This document shows, in pieces, positions 47,128 through 51,036 of a DNA stretch of 64,000 nucleotides. Each line of letters starts with the position of its first letter. Position 1 is the stretch's first letter. The DNA is from Candidatus Poribacteria bacterium (GTDB taxonomy: Bacteria > Poribacteria > WGA-4E > WGA-3G). The stretch is taken from contig CBDBFU010000023.1 in assembly GCA_965205025.1 (NCBI GenBank), positions 60,455-124,454 on the forward strand, written 5' to 3'. The notes beneath the pieces were generated by a model. That model had not been told where the DNA came from, did no database searches, and saw only the letters and a list, made by a program, of their open reading frames with translations. The position numbers were made by a program, and so were the translations under genes.

Positions 47128-47853
47128 CTAATCAAGACTATTTAACCCTTCAACAATCTGTGTAGATTTTGTGCGATGTCCGAACCTTTCACCAACATCC
47201 CTCCAAGCAATTTTACCGTCTTCATTTATTATATATGCCGCTGGTCGTGCAAAAATATTAGCTGGTGCTTGAAGAACATTGTAGGCGATGATAGTTATTA
47301 GATCCTCATCGCTAAGGATAAGAAAAGTGCCATTAATAAGATCTCGTGAGTTTCCAGCTCCAAATTGCGTATCACTACTAATTGCTATTAGTTCTGCACC
47401 AGCACTCTTAATGTCCTGATATCCATCTCGCAACTCCCTGAGTTGCCCTTGACAGACTGTTCAGGTCGAAGTAGCATAAAACACAAGTACAACCTTCTGT
47501 CCTGCATAATCGGATAGAGAATGTATAGTTCCATCAGCATCTGGTAATGAGAATTCAGGAGCAGTCGCCCCTATTGCTAATCCTTCACCTTCAGGTAATG
47601 GATCAGGTTCCGGTGTTGTTTCCACGATTGTTGGTTCAGGAACTGTCTCTACAGGATTCATTCCTGCTGTCATTTCTGGTGTAGTATCATCTGGTGGGGT
47701 TACTTCTGTACTTATATCTGGTTCTACAGGTGTCGTTTCAATAGGAGGACCGACGACATCCTCAATTACATCTTTTTCAAGACAAGCAGTAATAATTGTC
47801 ATGGATACTATTATTCCAATACTGACAATTGTAATCAATAAATTTGGTTTCAT
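47128..47853 (-). CDS. putative selenoprotein: AhpC/TSA (peroxiredoxin-like) lipoprotein with UxxC, TGA at 47461-47463
   Basis: Lipobox [16 protein letters not shown]...[24 protein letters not shown]...LIAISSD...[13 protein letters not shown]; both halves are in one frame. Confidence 0.88.
47430..47446 (-). promoter_or_regulatory. SECIS-like hairpin
   Basis: mRNA GCAACUC-AGG-GAGUUGC, perfect 7-bp stem; loop starts 21 nt after UGA. Confidence 0.75.
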
Positions 47854-48004
47854 ATTCACATCTCCATTCAACATTTCAATGTTCTGTTCATTCTATTTTA
47901 CCATAAATGATAGTCAATATCTACATTAGACCTTTAAATCAAACTCAATAGAACATTCTGATTATATATTGCTCAACCTATATTAACTATAGTCAAAACC
48001 ATTC

Positions 48005-48853
48005 CTATACTCTTTGGAAAGGTTTTGGTGGATGATGATCTTTGTTCTCAATAGTAATTGGTTCCGGTGGAAATTGTCGACAGACTTCTCCATTTTTCAT
48101 TGCCAAATAACAATTTTGTAAACCACGTTTCCTCCTGCTCATGATTTCTGGGTTTGTCCATACCCCTGCTACAGCAATACGACTCTTATCGCTTGTATTT
48201 GGAGGACTATAGTGCCACAAATTGCTATGCCAAAACACTACATCACCTGTATCTAATTCTATATGATGTATACCATTTTTTGTAATCATTTCCTCCACAC
48301 GTCCACGTGGAAGTTCTCCATGGATACTATCAGAATACAGCACGTGTTCCACTATCTCAGTCTGATGACTTTTTGGAATAAACTGCATGCATCCGTTTTC
48401 CTGTGTTGCAGGTTCAAGGGGTATCCAGAAATTGAAAGGTTCAGTTTCTCCATCTCTCCATAATCCATTATCCTGATGCCAAGGTGTTGCACTCCCGGTA
48501 CGCGCGGGTTTTAAGAAGCAACTATTGTACTTAACAATGATATTGTTACCAAGAAAATAACGTGCAATATTTAGGAGTTTTTCACCTGCATGGATATTGT
48601 GCCAAATGAGGGGTGACTGAACACAAAAATTTGCAAGTTTACGATAGCGTGCAATTCTCCCTTGTGGTGTATCCTCCATAGGATTCATCGGGTCAAGATC
48701 TACAAACTTCCCCGGTTCAGGTAGCATAATTACATTCCGTAATACGCCCCGTAATTCAACGGCAAGGTCCTTATCTATAACACTACGAAGAATAAAATAA
48801 CCTTCGTTTTCATATTGAGATTTCTGTTCATTGGACGGTATCCACTGTTCCAT
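48005..48853 (-). CDS. phytanoyl-CoA dioxygenase (PhyH) family Fe/2OG dioxygenase
   Basis: KP...TPWHQD, WIPL..AT.ENGC..FIP.SH, GDVVFWH...WHYS.PN.S..SR. Confidence 0.92.
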   Translation of the reverse strand: MEQWIPSNEQKSQYENEGYFILRSVIDKDLAVELRGVLRNVIMLPEPGKFVDLDPMNPMEDTPQGRIARYRKLANFCVQSPLIWHNIHAGEKLLNIARYFLGNNIIVKYNSCFLKPARTGSATPWHQDNGLWRDGETEPFNFWIPLEPATQENGCMQFIPKSHQTEIVEHVLYSDSIHGELPRGRVEEMITKNGIHHIELDTGDVVFWHSNLWHYSPPNTSDKSRIAVAGVWTNPEIMSRRKRGLQNCYLAMKNGEVCRQFPPEPITIENKDHHPPKPFQRV

Positions 48854-49216
48854 TAATAACTACCCCAAAATCGGATGAAAAAATGAGAAATTTTCAAAAA
48901 ACTGACCAATGTTGTAACCATTATATACGATTTAACGTAGTCATTTAAAAGCAGTAATTATCCTTTTAGAATACTGCTATTATAGGGATCACAAAGAATT
49001 GGCAATTTCTAAATTTAATTTCTTATTAAAATGTTGTAAAAACAAAAAATAGGTTACAAGAAAATTTAGCAGAATATTCATCTTATGTCAATGTAGTGAG
49101 GATAAGTCTTCGATCCAATTTTTTAGTAAATTCAGCCTTGAATTTTTAAAAATACAGATTCATTATCTTTTTGATAAATATAAGAAAACTACAATATTTC
49201 TCATACGGATTCTTAA

Positions 49217-50041
49217 ATGCTAACAAAAGAGATGGTTGAGGATGCACCAATTGATCCTGGGGTCTATATATTCCACGGGGCATCCGGCAAAATACTTTAC
49301 ATCGGTAAGGCAAAATGTCTACGTAAACGTGTACGTTCATACTTACATAATGTCAAAAATCGCAGATCAAAAATAAAGCGTCTAATCCGTTGGACTGAAT
49401 CCGTACAATATCAGATATGCCAATCTGAACAGGAAGCTCTTTTCCTGGAAGCAAGACTAATTAAGAAATACCTACCCTCTTATAATTCAGCACTCAAATG
49501 GGGTACTCAAACCTGGTTTATAAGAATTACTTTGGATGAAGATTATCCACGACTGGAAAGAGTTGCAGAAATTCAAGAGGACAGTGCAGAATACTTTGGA
49601 CCCTTATCAAGTAGAAGATGGACTGATGAAGCAATTGATGTATTGCAACGGATATTTATGGTACGAACATGCCAAGATAAAATCAAACCGACTGTGGGTT
49701 ATCGGGCATGTCTACAATATGACATGAAACGGTGCTATGCTCCGTGTGCTGCATTAATAACAAGAGAATTCTACAGAGATATGATAGTCAATTTATTAAA
49801 TCTACTTGAAGGGGAATATGAAAAAGTACAAACAGATATGATTGAGAAAAGAAACAGTGCTGCTGCATTGCTACAGTTTGAGAAAGCAGCAGCAATTCAA
49901 CAACAGCTTGTTAGGTTACAGAAGGTTTTTCCATTCCTTGATGCACACAGACATCAACCTGAAACAGATCCAAAAAAGATCCGTGAGGATATAATCCAAA
50001 CCCGTCTTCAAGTATCAAGTCAAATCGAAATGCCATTCTAA
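49217..50041 (+). CDS. short UvrC homolog (GIY-YIG + UVR domain, Cho-like)
   Basis: PGVYIF...LYIGKAK.LRKRVRSY, EA..LEARLIKKYLP.YN, C...CLQY..KRC.APC, AA..LQFEKAA. Confidence 0.85.
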   Translation: MLTKEMVEDAPIDPGVYIFHGASGKILYIGKAKCLRKRVRSYLHNVKNRRSKIKRLIRWTESVQYQICQSEQEALFLEARLIKKYLPSYNSALKWGTQTWFIRITLDEDYPRLERVAEIQEDSAEYFGPLSSRRWTDEAIDVLQRIFMVRTCQDKIKPTVGYRACLQYDMKRCYAPCAALITREFYRDMIVNLLNLLEGEYEKVQTDMIEKRNSAAALLQFEKAAAIQQQLVRLQKVFPFLDAHRHQPETDPKKIREDIIQTRLQVSSQIEMPF

Positions 50042-50184
50042 ACGTTGGCTGAATCCTGTTTCAAGAGTCGAATGGGTAATCTCGTTTGGATTGAACACAT
50101 ATCTAAAGGTATAATCACAATTTACTTGCACTCTTACAATTTATATGCTAAAATGAGAATGTTTAAACTAAAGGAGGTATCACG

Positions 50185-50565
50185 ATGTATATGGCGAAAT
50201 ATGCGCTGATTACTCTCGTGGCCTTTGCAATCCTGACAGGTTGTGGTATGGTAAACAAACAGGCTGAAATGTCTGAATCCACAACTATGGCAGCAGATGA
50301 TGGTACAGCATTAAAAGCTGCAGAACCAGCAACTTCTGCTTATCAGGAAGTGACTTTACAGGTGGAGGGCATGACATGAGGCTCATGTCCCGGTATAGTG
50401 CAGGATGCACTAAATAAGGTCACAGGGGTCTCAGAGGTTGTCAGTGTTAGCAGAGATACAAAATTGGTAGTCGTAAAAATTGAAAAGGGTAAAGTATCAA
50501 ACGAAGTTTTAATTAAGACTATAGATGATGCAGATCCGCGTTTTACGGCATCGCTTGCTAACTAA
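50185..50565 (+). CDS. putative selenoprotein: HMA-domain lipoprotein (GMTUGSC), TGA at 50377-50379
   Basis: AAGGAGG RBS; lipobox LTGC; VTLQVEGMT-U-GSCPGIVQDALNKVTGV...PRFTASLAN, open frame to TAA 50563. Confidence 0.9.
50396..50412 (+). promoter_or_regulatory. SECIS-like hairpin
   Basis: UAGUGCA-GGA-UGCACUA perfect stem; loop starts 23 nt after UGA. Confidence 0.78.
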
Positions 50566-50573
50566 CCACTGTT

Positions 50574-50602
50574 TAGGGCGAGTTCTCTCGCCCTACTTTT
50601 TT
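50574..50602 (+). terminator. Rho-independent terminator
   Basis: TAGGGCGAG-TTCT-CTCGCCCTA followed by CTTTTTT. Confidence 0.75.
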
Positions 50603-50673
50603 GTTGAATTCCAAAATTTGATTAACTCATAAAAATACTATATGGTTATTCATAGGAGTTTAAGGATACGATC

Positions 50674-51036
50674 ATGATTAATAAAGTTTGTATTAGTTTC
50701 TTTATGTTATTGCTGGTAATGGGTTGTGCCAATCAACAACAACAAGAAGCAGAGAATACACCAGAAGAAGCAACCATTTCTGAGGCGAAAGCAGAAGTTG
50801 AAGAAGTTAGCTTAACTGTAACAGGTATGACGTGAGGTAATTGTACAAGTAGAGTGCAGGATGCACTTGCTAAGGTTACAGGTGTCACTGAAGTCGTATC
50901 TGTTTCACAAGACGAAAATAAGGCAGTTGTCAAGGTTGAAAAAGGTAAAGTTAAGACAGAAGACTTAATTGCTGCTGTTGAGGGAATTGAAGAAGTTGAT
51001 GGTGCGCCACGTTTTCCAGCAAAAGTTTCTGAATAG
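50674..51036 (+). CDS. putative selenoprotein: second HMA-domain lipoprotein (GMTUGNC), TGA at 50833-50835
   Basis: MINKVCISFFMLLLVMGC lipobox; VSLTVTGMT-U-GNCTSRVQDALAKVTGV...; in frame with the listed 50854-51036 ORF. Confidence 0.9.
50848..50871 (+). promoter_or_regulatory. SECIS-like hairpin
   Basis: AGUA-(G bulge)-AGUGCA-GGA-UGCACU-UGCU; loop starts 23 nt after UGA. Confidence 0.78.

What the first reader, a model, noticed from the sequence alone, without database searches (positions are those of the whole stretch)
47128..51036. Cluster of three exported UxxC selenolipoproteins sharing a minimal SECIS: possible envelope selenol metal/redox system
Within 4 kb, three genes from two unrelated folds each combine a lipoprotein signal, TGA at the first Cys of CxxC, and a 6-7 bp perfect stem with CAGG at the apex (CUC-AGG-GAG; GCA-GGA-UGC twice) 21-23 nt downstream. 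Chance nonsense mutation would not produce this three times. TGA is still used as a normal stop elsewhere (modB, pcrA, rfaE2) and TGG encodes Trp, so this is site-specific recoding. Inference: a lineage-specific compact SECIS and an extracytoplasmic selenoproteome for metal capture and thiol/peroxide redox, which standard gene callers fragment.
Basis: partly seen in the sequence, partly recalled or inferred. Interest (0 to 1): 0.85.

Follow-up and report, generated by a model that had tools for sequence, protein, structure and literature searches.

The report
Three exported selenoproteins of sponge symbiont
Three genes of a Poribacteria (sponge-symbiont) genome that look broken by a stop codon are almost certainly intact membrane-anchored proteins carrying selenocysteine, two that bind metals and one redox enzyme; the recoding signal is the ordinary bacterial one, and the genes are neighbours rather than a shown single system.

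Summary
Observation confirmed. In this Poribacteria genome, three lipoprotein genes carry in-frame TGA at the first Cys of CxxC, each followed by a 7-bp hairpin: A (AhpC/TSA redoxin), B and C (HMA/MerP fold). selA, selB, selC and selD are present. TGA, lipobox and hairpin are conserved across relatives, with compensatory pairs, and 3 of 4 Cys-type Poribacteria homologues have lost the hairpin. Selenocysteine is about 97% likely.

Two inferences fail. The SECIS fits the published bacterial consensus. CAGG is not invariant, and the HMA hairpin recurs in 120+ metagenome stretches, mostly GC-rich, so it follows the gene family, not the lineage. The cluster is not an operon: A is divergent, and two non-selenium genes travel with the block, which is limited to one family.

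A belongs to the known Prx-like UxxC selenoproteins. Stand-alone exported UxxC-HMA proteins are absent from a 2026 catalogue and pass no NCBIfam cut-off. Best reading: envelope Cu(I)/soft-metal binders kept reduced by DsbD-fed redoxins (inferred). The genome holds at least 26 candidate selenoprotein genes, about 10 exported, in an oxygen-respiring organism. This scan already noted the HMA pair in other genomes.

The parts
47128..47874 (-). Gene A: lipoprotein signal (Cys31 from the first Met, Cys24 from the second), Pro/Glu/Thr-rich linker, AhpC/TSA (Prx-like) domain with UxxC
   Evidence: TGA and lipobox in 30 of 30 orthologue loci examined
47461..47463 (-). Sec codon (TGA) of A, codon 138
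   Evidence: aligns to the Thr of the Prx TxxC motif, and the following Cys aligns to the peroxidatic Cys
47430..47446 (-). SECIS hairpin of A: 7-bp stem, loop AGG, 21 nt after TGA
   Evidence: family pattern in 113 of 121 genomes of the phylum, reversed control 0
48005..48853 (-). PhyH-like 2OG-Fe(II) dioxygenase, no Sec; part of the syntenic block
49217..50041 (+). uvrC-like GIY-YIG/UVR nuclease, no Sec; linked to the HMA pair in 31 of 34 genus relatives where it was found
50185..50565 (+). Gene B: lipoprotein (Cys20), linker, HMA domain with GMTUGSC
50377..50379 (+). Sec codon (TGA) of B, codon 65
50396..50412 (+). SECIS hairpin of B: 7-bp stem, loop GGA, 23 nt after TGA
50574..50595 (+). 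Terminator-like hairpin (9 bp, T run) between B and C
   Evidence: consensus match only
50674..51036 (+). Gene C: lipoprotein (Cys18), linker, HMA domain with GMTUGNC; model matches MerP
50833..50835 (+). Sec codon (TGA) of C, codon 54
   Evidence: TGT with broken stem in G023 (L028)
50852..50868 (+). SECIS hairpin of C: 6 Watson-Crick pairs plus one G-U, loop GGA, 23 nt after TGA
51104..51139 (+). Terminator-like hairpin after C
   Evidence: consensus match only
51157..52350 (+). Exported 397-aa protein of unknown family; fused in frame to C, without its own signal peptide, in 2 of 30 loci examined (L037, L042)

Best explanation
All three genes are intact selenoprotein genes read by the standard bacterial SelB/tRNA-Sec system, each through its own ordinary SECIS hairpin just after the UGA (shown by comparative evidence, about 0.97). 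The products carry lipoprotein signals and would be anchored in the envelope on long flexible linkers (signals shown, processing inferred). B and C are MerP/CopZ-fold proteins whose GMT-U-x-x-C loop binds a soft metal between selenolate and thiolate. Cu(I) is the most likely everyday ligand, and Hg(II) or Ag(I) would also bind. They act as envelope metal buffers or carriers, with the selenol staying deprotonated where a thiol would not (inferred). A is a Prx-like UxxC thiol-disulfide oxidoreductase, one of three such lipoproteins in the genome, probably fed electrons by DsbD. It or a paralogue keeps envelope Se-S and S-S sites, including those of B and C, reduced (inferred). The three genes sit together mainly because gene order is conserved in this family. 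They are not one transcription unit.
For: Machinery: selA over cut-off, selB beside tRNA-Sec, selD with its own TGA; SelB has the SECIS-binding C-terminal domain, matching PDB 1wsu/1lva, and is in 59 of 61 genomes, 52 of 52 high-quality. Conservation: all 86 distinct Sec-type HMA sites have a G-loop hairpin of -3 kcal/mol or better, against 12 of 88 Cys-type sites. Stem codons are fixed against genome codon use: GTG 86 of 86 and CAG/CGG 86 of 86, where the genome prefers GTT and CAA. The closing pair is A-U 76, G-C 6, G-U 3, mismatch 1 of 86; on 26 chosen rows 92.9% of cells pair against 13-52% for slid partners. Three of 4 Cys-type Poribacteria HMA homologues have lost the stem. Lipobox in 84 of 84 short Sec-HMA genes and 30 of 30 A orthologues; Lgt present. 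Fold: model of C (pLDDT about 90 over the domain) best matches MerP 1osd, rmsd 1.5 A. Context: of 4 HMA domains in the genome the 3 exported ones have Sec and the cytoplasmic one on the P1B ATPase has Cys; DsbD, a heme-copper oxidase with Sco; no MerT over cut-off in 61 genomes, no MerA over cut-off in this one. Sec pKa 5.2 against 8.3 for Cys (PMC10779653). A keeps Arg-Pro before the last strand in 21 of 30 orthologues by my pattern and has no Prx PxxxTxxC motif.
Against: No protein, RNA, selenium-labelling or metal-binding data exist here. The metal is chosen from genome context only. No transporter or copper protein is encoded next to B and C. In metagenomes Sec-HMA domains occur fused or next to MerT-like transporters in 3 of 80 loci (one confirmed by Pfam), which points to uptake or mercury in those organisms. 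Most stem pairs never vary, so covariation rests on few events among related genomes. By my energy measure the upper stems of B and C (-6.8) fall just short of the model's -7.5 kcal/mol, though longer folds reach -9 or better. That A reduces B or C is untested. The A-B/C block is kept across five genera of the family, which a functional link would also explain.
Confidence: 0.55

Rival explanations
1. B and C replace the usual periplasmic copper chaperone PCuAC. They take Cu(I) exported by the P1B ATPase and hand it to Sco and the CuA site of the heme-copper oxidase, with A as the TlpA-like reductant. This is a specific version of the best explanation.
For: Oxidase operon with Sco in this genome; PCuAC not found in 61 of 61 genomes while 4 of 14 controls have it; copper-type P1B ATPase motifs (motif meaning recalled).
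Against: B and C are not near the oxidase operon or the ATPase. PCuAC is also missing from 10 of the 14 control genomes, several of which have COX1. Related families differ in HMA copy number.
Confidence: 0.12
2. B and C are sacrificial mercury or silver traps that protect a selenium-rich cell. They bind Hg(II) at the surface without a MerT/MerA route.
For: Best fold match and best NCBIfam match for B is MerP. Sec-HMA is linked to MerT-like domains in 3 of 80 metagenome loci. The genome has at least 26 candidate selenoprotein genes to protect. High Hg-Se affinity is recalled knowledge.
Against: No MerT over cut-off in 61 genomes and no MerA over cut-off in this genome. No regulator gene was seen beside the pair. 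Keeping one to several copies in 112 of 121 genomes fits housekeeping better than resistance.
Confidence: 0.13
3. The HMA fold is used here as a redox shuttle (selenol/selenylsulfide), not a metal site, and A, B and C form a dedicated envelope redox relay.
For: Sec usually marks a catalytic redox residue (PMC13188914). A Sec redoxin lies directly upstream of the Sec-HMA gene in 3 metagenome loci and about 1 kb upstream in a fourth, 4 of 80. Sec-HMA is fused to a cytochrome c-WD40 protein in this genome. A stays within about 7 kb of the HMA pair in 28 of 36 genus relatives.
Against: The metal-binding loop GM(T/V)xxxC is intact. The three adjacent redoxin cases are of a different (TxxU, BCP-like) type and look like one lineage. 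Non-selenium genes show the same linkage. No A-like gene within about 7 kb of the HMA gene in 14 loci of other families.
Confidence: 0.17
4. The UGA is read as cysteine or tryptophan, or the genes are truncated pseudogenes.
For: Full-length database entries show W at this position. A SECIS-dependent UGA-to-Cys tRNA exists in some bacteria (PMC13582414).
Against: The W entries come from short contigs (567 to about 2200 nt) and read as gene-caller artefacts; TGA behaves as a stop genome-wide. ARAGORN finds one UCA-anticodon tRNA, called tRNA-Sec, and one tRNA-Cys. Sequence after the TGA is conserved across four families.
Confidence: 0.03

Closest known systems
Bacterial SECIS consensus model (as restated in PMC13188914: 3-9 nt apical loop, 4-16 bp upper stem, G in the first two loop positions, 16-37 nt spacing)
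   Same: Stem 7 bp, loop 3 nt, G at position 1 or 2, spacing 21-23 nt; SelB has the matching winged-helix domain. A 7-bp stem with a GGU loop is described for the exported selenoprotein SaoC (bioRxiv 2022.07.06.499078).
   Different: Nothing that defines a new class. The HMA family keeps a near-fixed stem sequence that constrains the peptide V-(Q/R)-(D/S/A/G)-A-L across Poribacteria and GC-rich metagenome contigs.
Prx-like thiol:disulfide oxidoreductase selenoproteins (PF00578, UxxC), 'Prx-like 1' of the GOS survey (PMC2398784; catalogued in PMC13188914)
   Same: AhpC/TSA domain with UxxC; a GOS Prx-like 1 sequence shows the same FY-x-G-x-W-U-P-x-C-x-x-Q-L type of active site as the two paralogues of A on contig C25.
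   Different: Lipid anchor plus a long Pro/Glu/Thr linker; three such lipoproteins per genome here and up to five pattern matches in relatives.
MerP, periplasmic Hg(II)-binding protein (TIGR02052; PDB 1osd, 1afi), and CopZ chaperones
   Same: HMA fold, GMTxxxC loop, export signal.
   Different: Sec replaces the first Cys; lipid anchor; tandem pair; no merT or merA over cut-off; scores 51.8 and 34.6 bits against a cut-off of 92.55.
Catalogued HMA-fold selenoproteins: P1B ATPase N-terminal UxxC domain, NF041115 UxxU metal-binding (seleno)protein, NF045683 MerT/CopZ fusion selenoprotein
   Same: Sec in an HMA metal loop; the GOS ATPase example has GMTUSSC.
   Different: B and C are stand-alone exported UxxC proteins; scores 49.1 and 46.8 against 95 (NF041115) and 40.6 and 28.9 against 375 (NF045683). 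Five metagenome relatives also stay below every cut-off.
SAO system exported selenoproteins SaoB, SaoC, SaoX (bioRxiv 2022.07.06.499078)
   Same: Exported or lipid-anchored selenoproteins proposed to bind heavy metals.
   Different: SAO is a conserved nine-gene operon with ABC transporter in anaerobes. Here there is no operon, no transporter, and the host has a heme-copper oxidase.

Membership tests
Bacterial selenoprotein gene | In-frame TGA aligned to a conserved Cys of homologues | tested here: met
   83 Cys-type sites outside Poribacteria, none with TGA, in the 64 non-Poribacteria loci parsed
Bacterial selenoprotein gene | selA, selB, selC, selD in the genome | tested here: met
   SelB in 59 of 61 genomes
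Bacterial selenoprotein gene | Selenium in the protein | not testable with these tools
   needs 75Se labelling or mass spectrometry
Bacterial SECIS consensus | 16-37 nt from UGA to a 3-9 nt loop on a 4-16 bp stem | tested here: met
   21, 23, 23 nt; 3-nt loops; 7-bp stems
Bacterial SECIS consensus | G in the first two loop positions | tested here: met
   G at loop position 1 in 86 of 86 HMA sites; G at position 1 or 2 in the 32 A-family sites
Bacterial SECIS consensus | Folding energy of -7.5 kcal/mol or lower | tested here: inconclusive
   upper stem alone -7.7, -6.8, -6.8; first 40 nt -9.6, -9.5, -9.2; the model's own window was not reproduced
   loops vary within both families and across the genome; HMA pattern in 120+ metagenome stretches of 43-68% GC
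Prx-like thiol:disulfide oxidoreductase selenoproteins (gene A) | PF00578 domain over cut-off with UxxC | tested here: met
   97.3 bits against 26; UxxC in 30 of 30 orthologues
True peroxiredoxin (gene A) | PxxxTxxC/U active-site motif | tested here: not met
   no Pro; Sec aligns to the Thr position; below all peroxiredoxin cut-offs
HMA domain (genes B, C) | PF00403 over cut-off and ferredoxin-like fold | tested here: met
   37.8 and 38.7 bits against 24.8
MerP of mer operons (genes B, C) | TIGR02052 cut-off | tested here: not met
   51.8 and 34.6 against 92.55
MerP of mer operons (genes B, C) | merT and merA in the neighbourhood or genome | tested here: not met
   MerT 0 of 61 over cut-off; MerA best 383.9 against 454.45 in this 95%-complete genome
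NF041115 UxxU metal-binding (seleno)protein | UxxU motif and score of 95 bits | tested here: not met
   UxxC in all 86 sites; 49.1 and 46.8 bits
Bacterial lipoprotein | Hydrophobic signal ending in a lipobox Cys, Lgt present | tested here: met
   own pattern test, 84 of 84 and 30 of 30; Lgt; no SignalP-type predictor was available
Selenoprotein operon (SAO or Tso type) | Co-oriented selenoprotein genes conserved together across distant taxa | tested here: not met
   A divergent from B and C; block confined to one family; 0 of 14 loci in other families

The most novel reading that the evidence does not exclude
Oxygen-respiring Poribacteria run their envelope metal and redox chemistry on selenium. 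Exported Sec-HMA proteins form a widespread, uncatalogued family (Poribacteria plus many GC-rich environmental bacteria) that works with exported Sec redoxins as a selenol-based Cu(I)/soft-metal relay in the periplasm, in place of PCuAC or MerP/MerT. That would be a non-catalytic, metal-trafficking use of selenocysteine in aerobes, where reviews expect few selenoproteins.
Probability: 0.2. Interest if true: 0.75.

Novelty: new variant of a known kind. Interest (0 to 1): 0.45.

Why it matters
The recoding is ordinary, but the proteins are hidden from public annotation, and the exported stand-alone UxxC-HMA form is missing from the 119-entry 2026 catalogue and from NCBIfam cut-offs, although its signature is in 112 of 121 genomes of the phylum and 120+ metagenome stretches. 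A 70-residue MerP-fold domain with natural Sec and Cys versions is a simple system for testing what selenium adds to metal binding as opposed to catalysis. The larger point is at least 26 candidate selenoprotein genes, about 10 exported, in a genome with a heme-copper oxidase. The 2026 review states that aerobic bacteria rarely retain selenoproteins, though marine surveys already list many redoxin selenoproteins.

Tried and rejected
Global reassignment of TGA: rejected. A CAGG-specific strict scan found only part of the genome's candidates, and my first two scans missed the C25 paralogues, whose loop is GTT. Rfam gave no meaningful match in 46500-51800; four hits far below gathering score. ESM Atlas on the 397-aa downstream protein gave only hypothetical clusters. 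The representative search with B was dominated by multi-HMA proteins. Clustering of metagenome neighbours gave mostly antisense-frame clusters and no common partner. One protein (L246) was given in the wrong frame and is ignored. Candidate TGAs at window 16404-16406 (end of a DUF89-like gene) and 60804-60806 (antisense to the amidase) were not accepted as Sec. No complex prediction was run. Literature: searches for Poribacteria with selenocysteine (3 papers, none on these genes by listing or passages), selenoprotein N with Poribacteria (none), HMA/CopZ/MerP with selenocysteine found no description of this exported family. Haft and Tolstoy 2025 (mSystems) was not held, and Deng et al. 2026 (Cell Rep) was not looked up; either, or their supplements, may list these proteins.

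
Full report
Source and observation. The window is G000:C23, a 5.66-Mb genome whose closest named relatives are Candidatus Poribacteria. A has an AhpC/TSA domain and B and C an HMA domain, all over Pfam cut-off and all spanning the TGA. Each starts with a hydrophobic signal ending in a lipobox Cys. Each TGA is the first position of a CxxC-type motif and is followed by a 7-bp hairpin with a 3-nt loop, 21 nt (A) or 23 nt (B, C) downstream. Public gene calls hold only fragments: 64 aa for B, 53 aa for C, 137 and 101 aa for A.

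Is it selenocysteine? The genome has selA, selB next to a tRNA-Sec and a selD that itself has an in-frame TGA. The SelB C-terminus matches the solved SECIS-binding domains 1wsu and 1lva. SelB is over cut-off in 59 of 61 genomes, and in 52 of 52 of high quality. TGA is otherwise a stop: 384 of 2206 long ORFs end in it, and the next stop follows after a median of 8 codons, as for TAA (9) and TAG (8). With C as query all 61 genomes have a match, and nearly all listed lipoprotein-length matches contain one TGA. With A, 59 of 61 match and all 150 listed rows contain one TGA; 100 further rows were not listed. Among distinct HMA sites parsed from fetched loci, 86 of 86 TGA sites have a G-loop hairpin of -3 kcal/mol or better, against 12 of 88 Cys sites, most of them unrelated genes. 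The closer control is the four Cys-type Poribacteria homologues: three have lost the stem and one (L099) keeps a 5-bp version; a fifth row there (L105) is not an HMA gene and was dropped. The stem fixes codons that the genome disfavours: GTG in 86 of 86 and CAG/CGG in 86 of 86. Its closing pair is A-U in 76, G-C in 6, G-U in 3 and unpaired in 1. In the A family one pair is A-U in 28, G-C in 3 and mismatched in 1 of 32. On 26 rows that I chose for diversity from the 86, 92.9% of cells pair, against 13-52% when partners are slid. These sequences are related, so the compensatory changes are a few events. Synonymous recoding gave as strong a hairpin in 7, 155 and 71 of 5000 trials. I put Sec at about 0.97.

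The SECIS is ordinary. The 2026 review PMC13188914 (passages and sections 7 parts 1-2, 9 and 10 read) gives the bacterial model as a 3-9 nt loop, 4-16 bp stem, G in the first two loop positions and 16-37 nt spacing. All three hairpins meet these terms; the energy term is borderline by my measure. CAGG is not kept: HMA loops are GGA, GTC, GGC or GGG, and A-family loops are GGT, GTT, AGG, AGT, AGA or GGA. Other candidates in the genome use other loops at 16-26 nt. A pattern for TGA-x-x-Cys plus the HMA stem matches 112 of 121 genomes of the phylum, with one match for the reversed control; the A-family pattern matches 113 of 121, control 0. In the 80 loci with flanks all 81 matches are HMA homologues, 75 of 81 lie in DNA above 50% GC against 37% here, and 62 of 81 have a signal peptide or lipobox by my pattern. 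Of the other 40 short loci, 28 gave an HMA hit by tblastn. The contigs are unnamed, so their taxa are unknown. The hairpin sequence therefore follows the protein family, not the lineage.

The cluster is conserved gene order. A is on the opposite strand, 2.3 kb from B, with PhyH-like and uvrC-like genes between; terminator-like hairpins follow B and C. From the coordinates, A is within about 7 kb of the HMA genes in 28 of 36 genus relatives, far away in 2 single-contig genomes (G003, G009) and undecidable in 6. The uvrC-like gene is linked to the HMA pair in 31 of the 34 where it was found, and in G003 and G009 it goes with A. The M16 peptidase further left stays within 10 kb of A in 11 of 36, so the core block is more stable than its flank. 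The block extends to other genera of the same family: all 8 loci fetched hold A, the uvrC-like gene and the HMA genes in the same order, 7 of 8 with PhyH. In 14 loci from three other families no A-like gene lies near the HMA gene. This neither shows nor excludes a functional link. In favour of one, 3 of 80 metagenome loci have an exported TxxU peroxiredoxin gene with its own TGA directly upstream of the Sec-HMA gene, and a fourth has a UxxC redoxin about 1 kb upstream; the three look like one lineage.

What the proteins probably do. The model of C is a clean HMA fold on a disordered linker, closest to MerP (1osd, rmsd 1.5 A). Of four HMA domains in the genome, the three exported ones carry Sec (B, C and a cytochrome c-WD40-HMA fusion on C15) and the cytoplasmic one on the P1B ATPase carries Cys. 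MerT is not found over cut-off in 61 genomes and MerA not in this one, so these are not parts of a mer system. The genome encodes a copper-type ATPase (motif reading recalled), a heme-copper oxidase with Sco and DsbD; PCuAC is not found in 61 of 61. I infer that B and C bind Cu(I) and other soft metals between Se and S in the envelope, helped by the low pKa of Sec (5.2 against 8.3; PMC10779653, passages). In A the Sec aligns to the Thr of the peroxiredoxin TxxC and the Pro of PxxxTxxC is missing, so it reads as a thiol-disulfide oxidoreductase rather than a peroxidase. That A reduces B or C is inference. Against copper: nothing copper-related is encoded nearby, and 3 of 80 metagenome loci tie Sec-HMA to MerT-like domains (Pfam-confirmed for L258 only).

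Wider genome. Scans for coding TGAs with a hairpin give at least 26 candidate genes with 27 Sec codons: SelD, FdhA, MoeB, PrdB-like, UGSC, CUAEP radical SAM, SelW-like, ArsC-like, DUF5069, a DUF3179-like protein, a two-Sec BCP, ResA-like, thioredoxin-TPR, four AhpC/TSA proteins (A, two on C25, one on C3), three HMA proteins and six members of a (S/A)CUG family. Family names rest, except FdhA and DUF3179 (motif match to the catalogue) and the selenoprotein N label for the six (SCUG motif in PMC12839072, passages; my recall; earlier scan notes). About 10 have export signals by eye. Conservation in relatives was tested only for the HMA and A families. The list is a lower bound.

Comparison with what is known. 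A is a new member of the Prx-like UxxC selenoproteins (catalogue; GOS supplement, PMC2398784). Sec in an HMA loop is known from P1B ATPases, NF041115 and NF045683, and a 33-residue 'MerP' entry in the GOS data that does not show the HMA loop. B, C and five metagenome relatives pass none of these cut-offs, and the stand-alone exported UxxC form is not among the 119 catalogue entries. Exported selenolipoproteins with a 7-bp G-loop SECIS are described for the SAO system (bioRxiv 2022.07.06.499078, passages). Other papers seen as passages: PMC13582414, PMC1976440, PMC9312934. Searches found no description of these Poribacteria genes; one directly relevant paper (Haft and Tolstoy 2025) was not available. 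Earlier notes of this scan report the same HMA pair in other genomes and several of the other candidates in this genome.

Verdict. Real, well-supported selenoprotein genes; standard SECIS; neighbourhood best read as family-level synteny. New variant of a known kind, interest 0.45. The bolder reading, a selenium-based envelope metal relay in aerobes, is open at about 0.2.

Noticed in passing
G000:C15:368036-369634 (-), L047:4037-5635: Exported protein with planctomycete cytochrome c, WD40 propeller and a C-terminal Sec-HMA domain carrying the same SECIS; 510-590-aa frames with one TGA recur in many relatives; a DUF1549 gene lies downstream.
   Followed up: partly
G000:C25:50978-53146 (-), L110: Two more tandem UxxC AhpC/TSA lipoproteins with carboxypeptidase-regulatory-like spacer domains; SECIS loop GTT.
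   Followed up: partly
G000:C7:39059-48921 (-) and C4:12511-16908 (+): Six genes of a roughly 500-650-aa family with an (S/A)CUG motif and a shared hairpin; no Pfam (2 tested) or NCBIfam (5 tested) match; database homologues mostly cover about half the length. Resembles selenoprotein N by motif; already noted by this scan.
   Followed up: partly
G000:C12:2291-3193 (+), L198: Tandem BCP-type peroxiredoxin with two in-frame TGAs, each with its own hairpin.
   Followed up: partly
window 51157-52350 (+); L037, L042: Exported protein of unknown family with an H-x-H-G-H-x-x-E stretch; fused in frame to C in two genomes; found in 29 of 61 genomes.
   Followed up: partly
L335 (G122), L336 (G098): In these genomes the HMA pair is replaced by four or five HMA repeats at 210-230 nt spacing, two or three with TGA and the rest with Cys.
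   Followed up: partly
L231, L261, L293, L271: GC-rich metagenome contigs with an exported Sec redoxin gene upstream of the Sec-HMA gene on the same strand.
   Followed up: partly
L246, L258, L268: Sec-HMA domains fused or adjacent to MerT-like membrane domains and CopZ-type domains.
   Followed up: partly
G001:C3, G005:C1, G021:C1, G031:C4, G035:C94: An extra A-family selenoprotein gene lies within about 1.5 kb of selB in five relatives (coordinates).
   Followed up: no
window 14868-16406 (+), TGA at 16404-16406: DUF89-like damage-control phosphatase ending in C-D-S-TGA, then seven codons with a Cys and a weak G-loop hairpin; possible C-terminal Sec, not accepted.
   Followed up: partly
G000:C15:323532-324020 (-): Small PCP_red-like gene with a TGA followed by Q-C and a weak hairpin; doubtful Sec candidate.
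   Followed up: no
many contigs, e.g. G000:C23:100008 (window about 39550): A dispersed repeat with the palindrome TGTCAC-N5-GTGACA, about 20 copies among the strict-scan hits; probably the end of a mobile element or a repeat family.
   Followed up: no
window 45792-46778 (-): Fused nucleotidyltransferase (Pol beta) and HepT-like gene, an MNT-HEPN toxin-antitoxin-like arrangement, just downstream of A.
   Followed up: no
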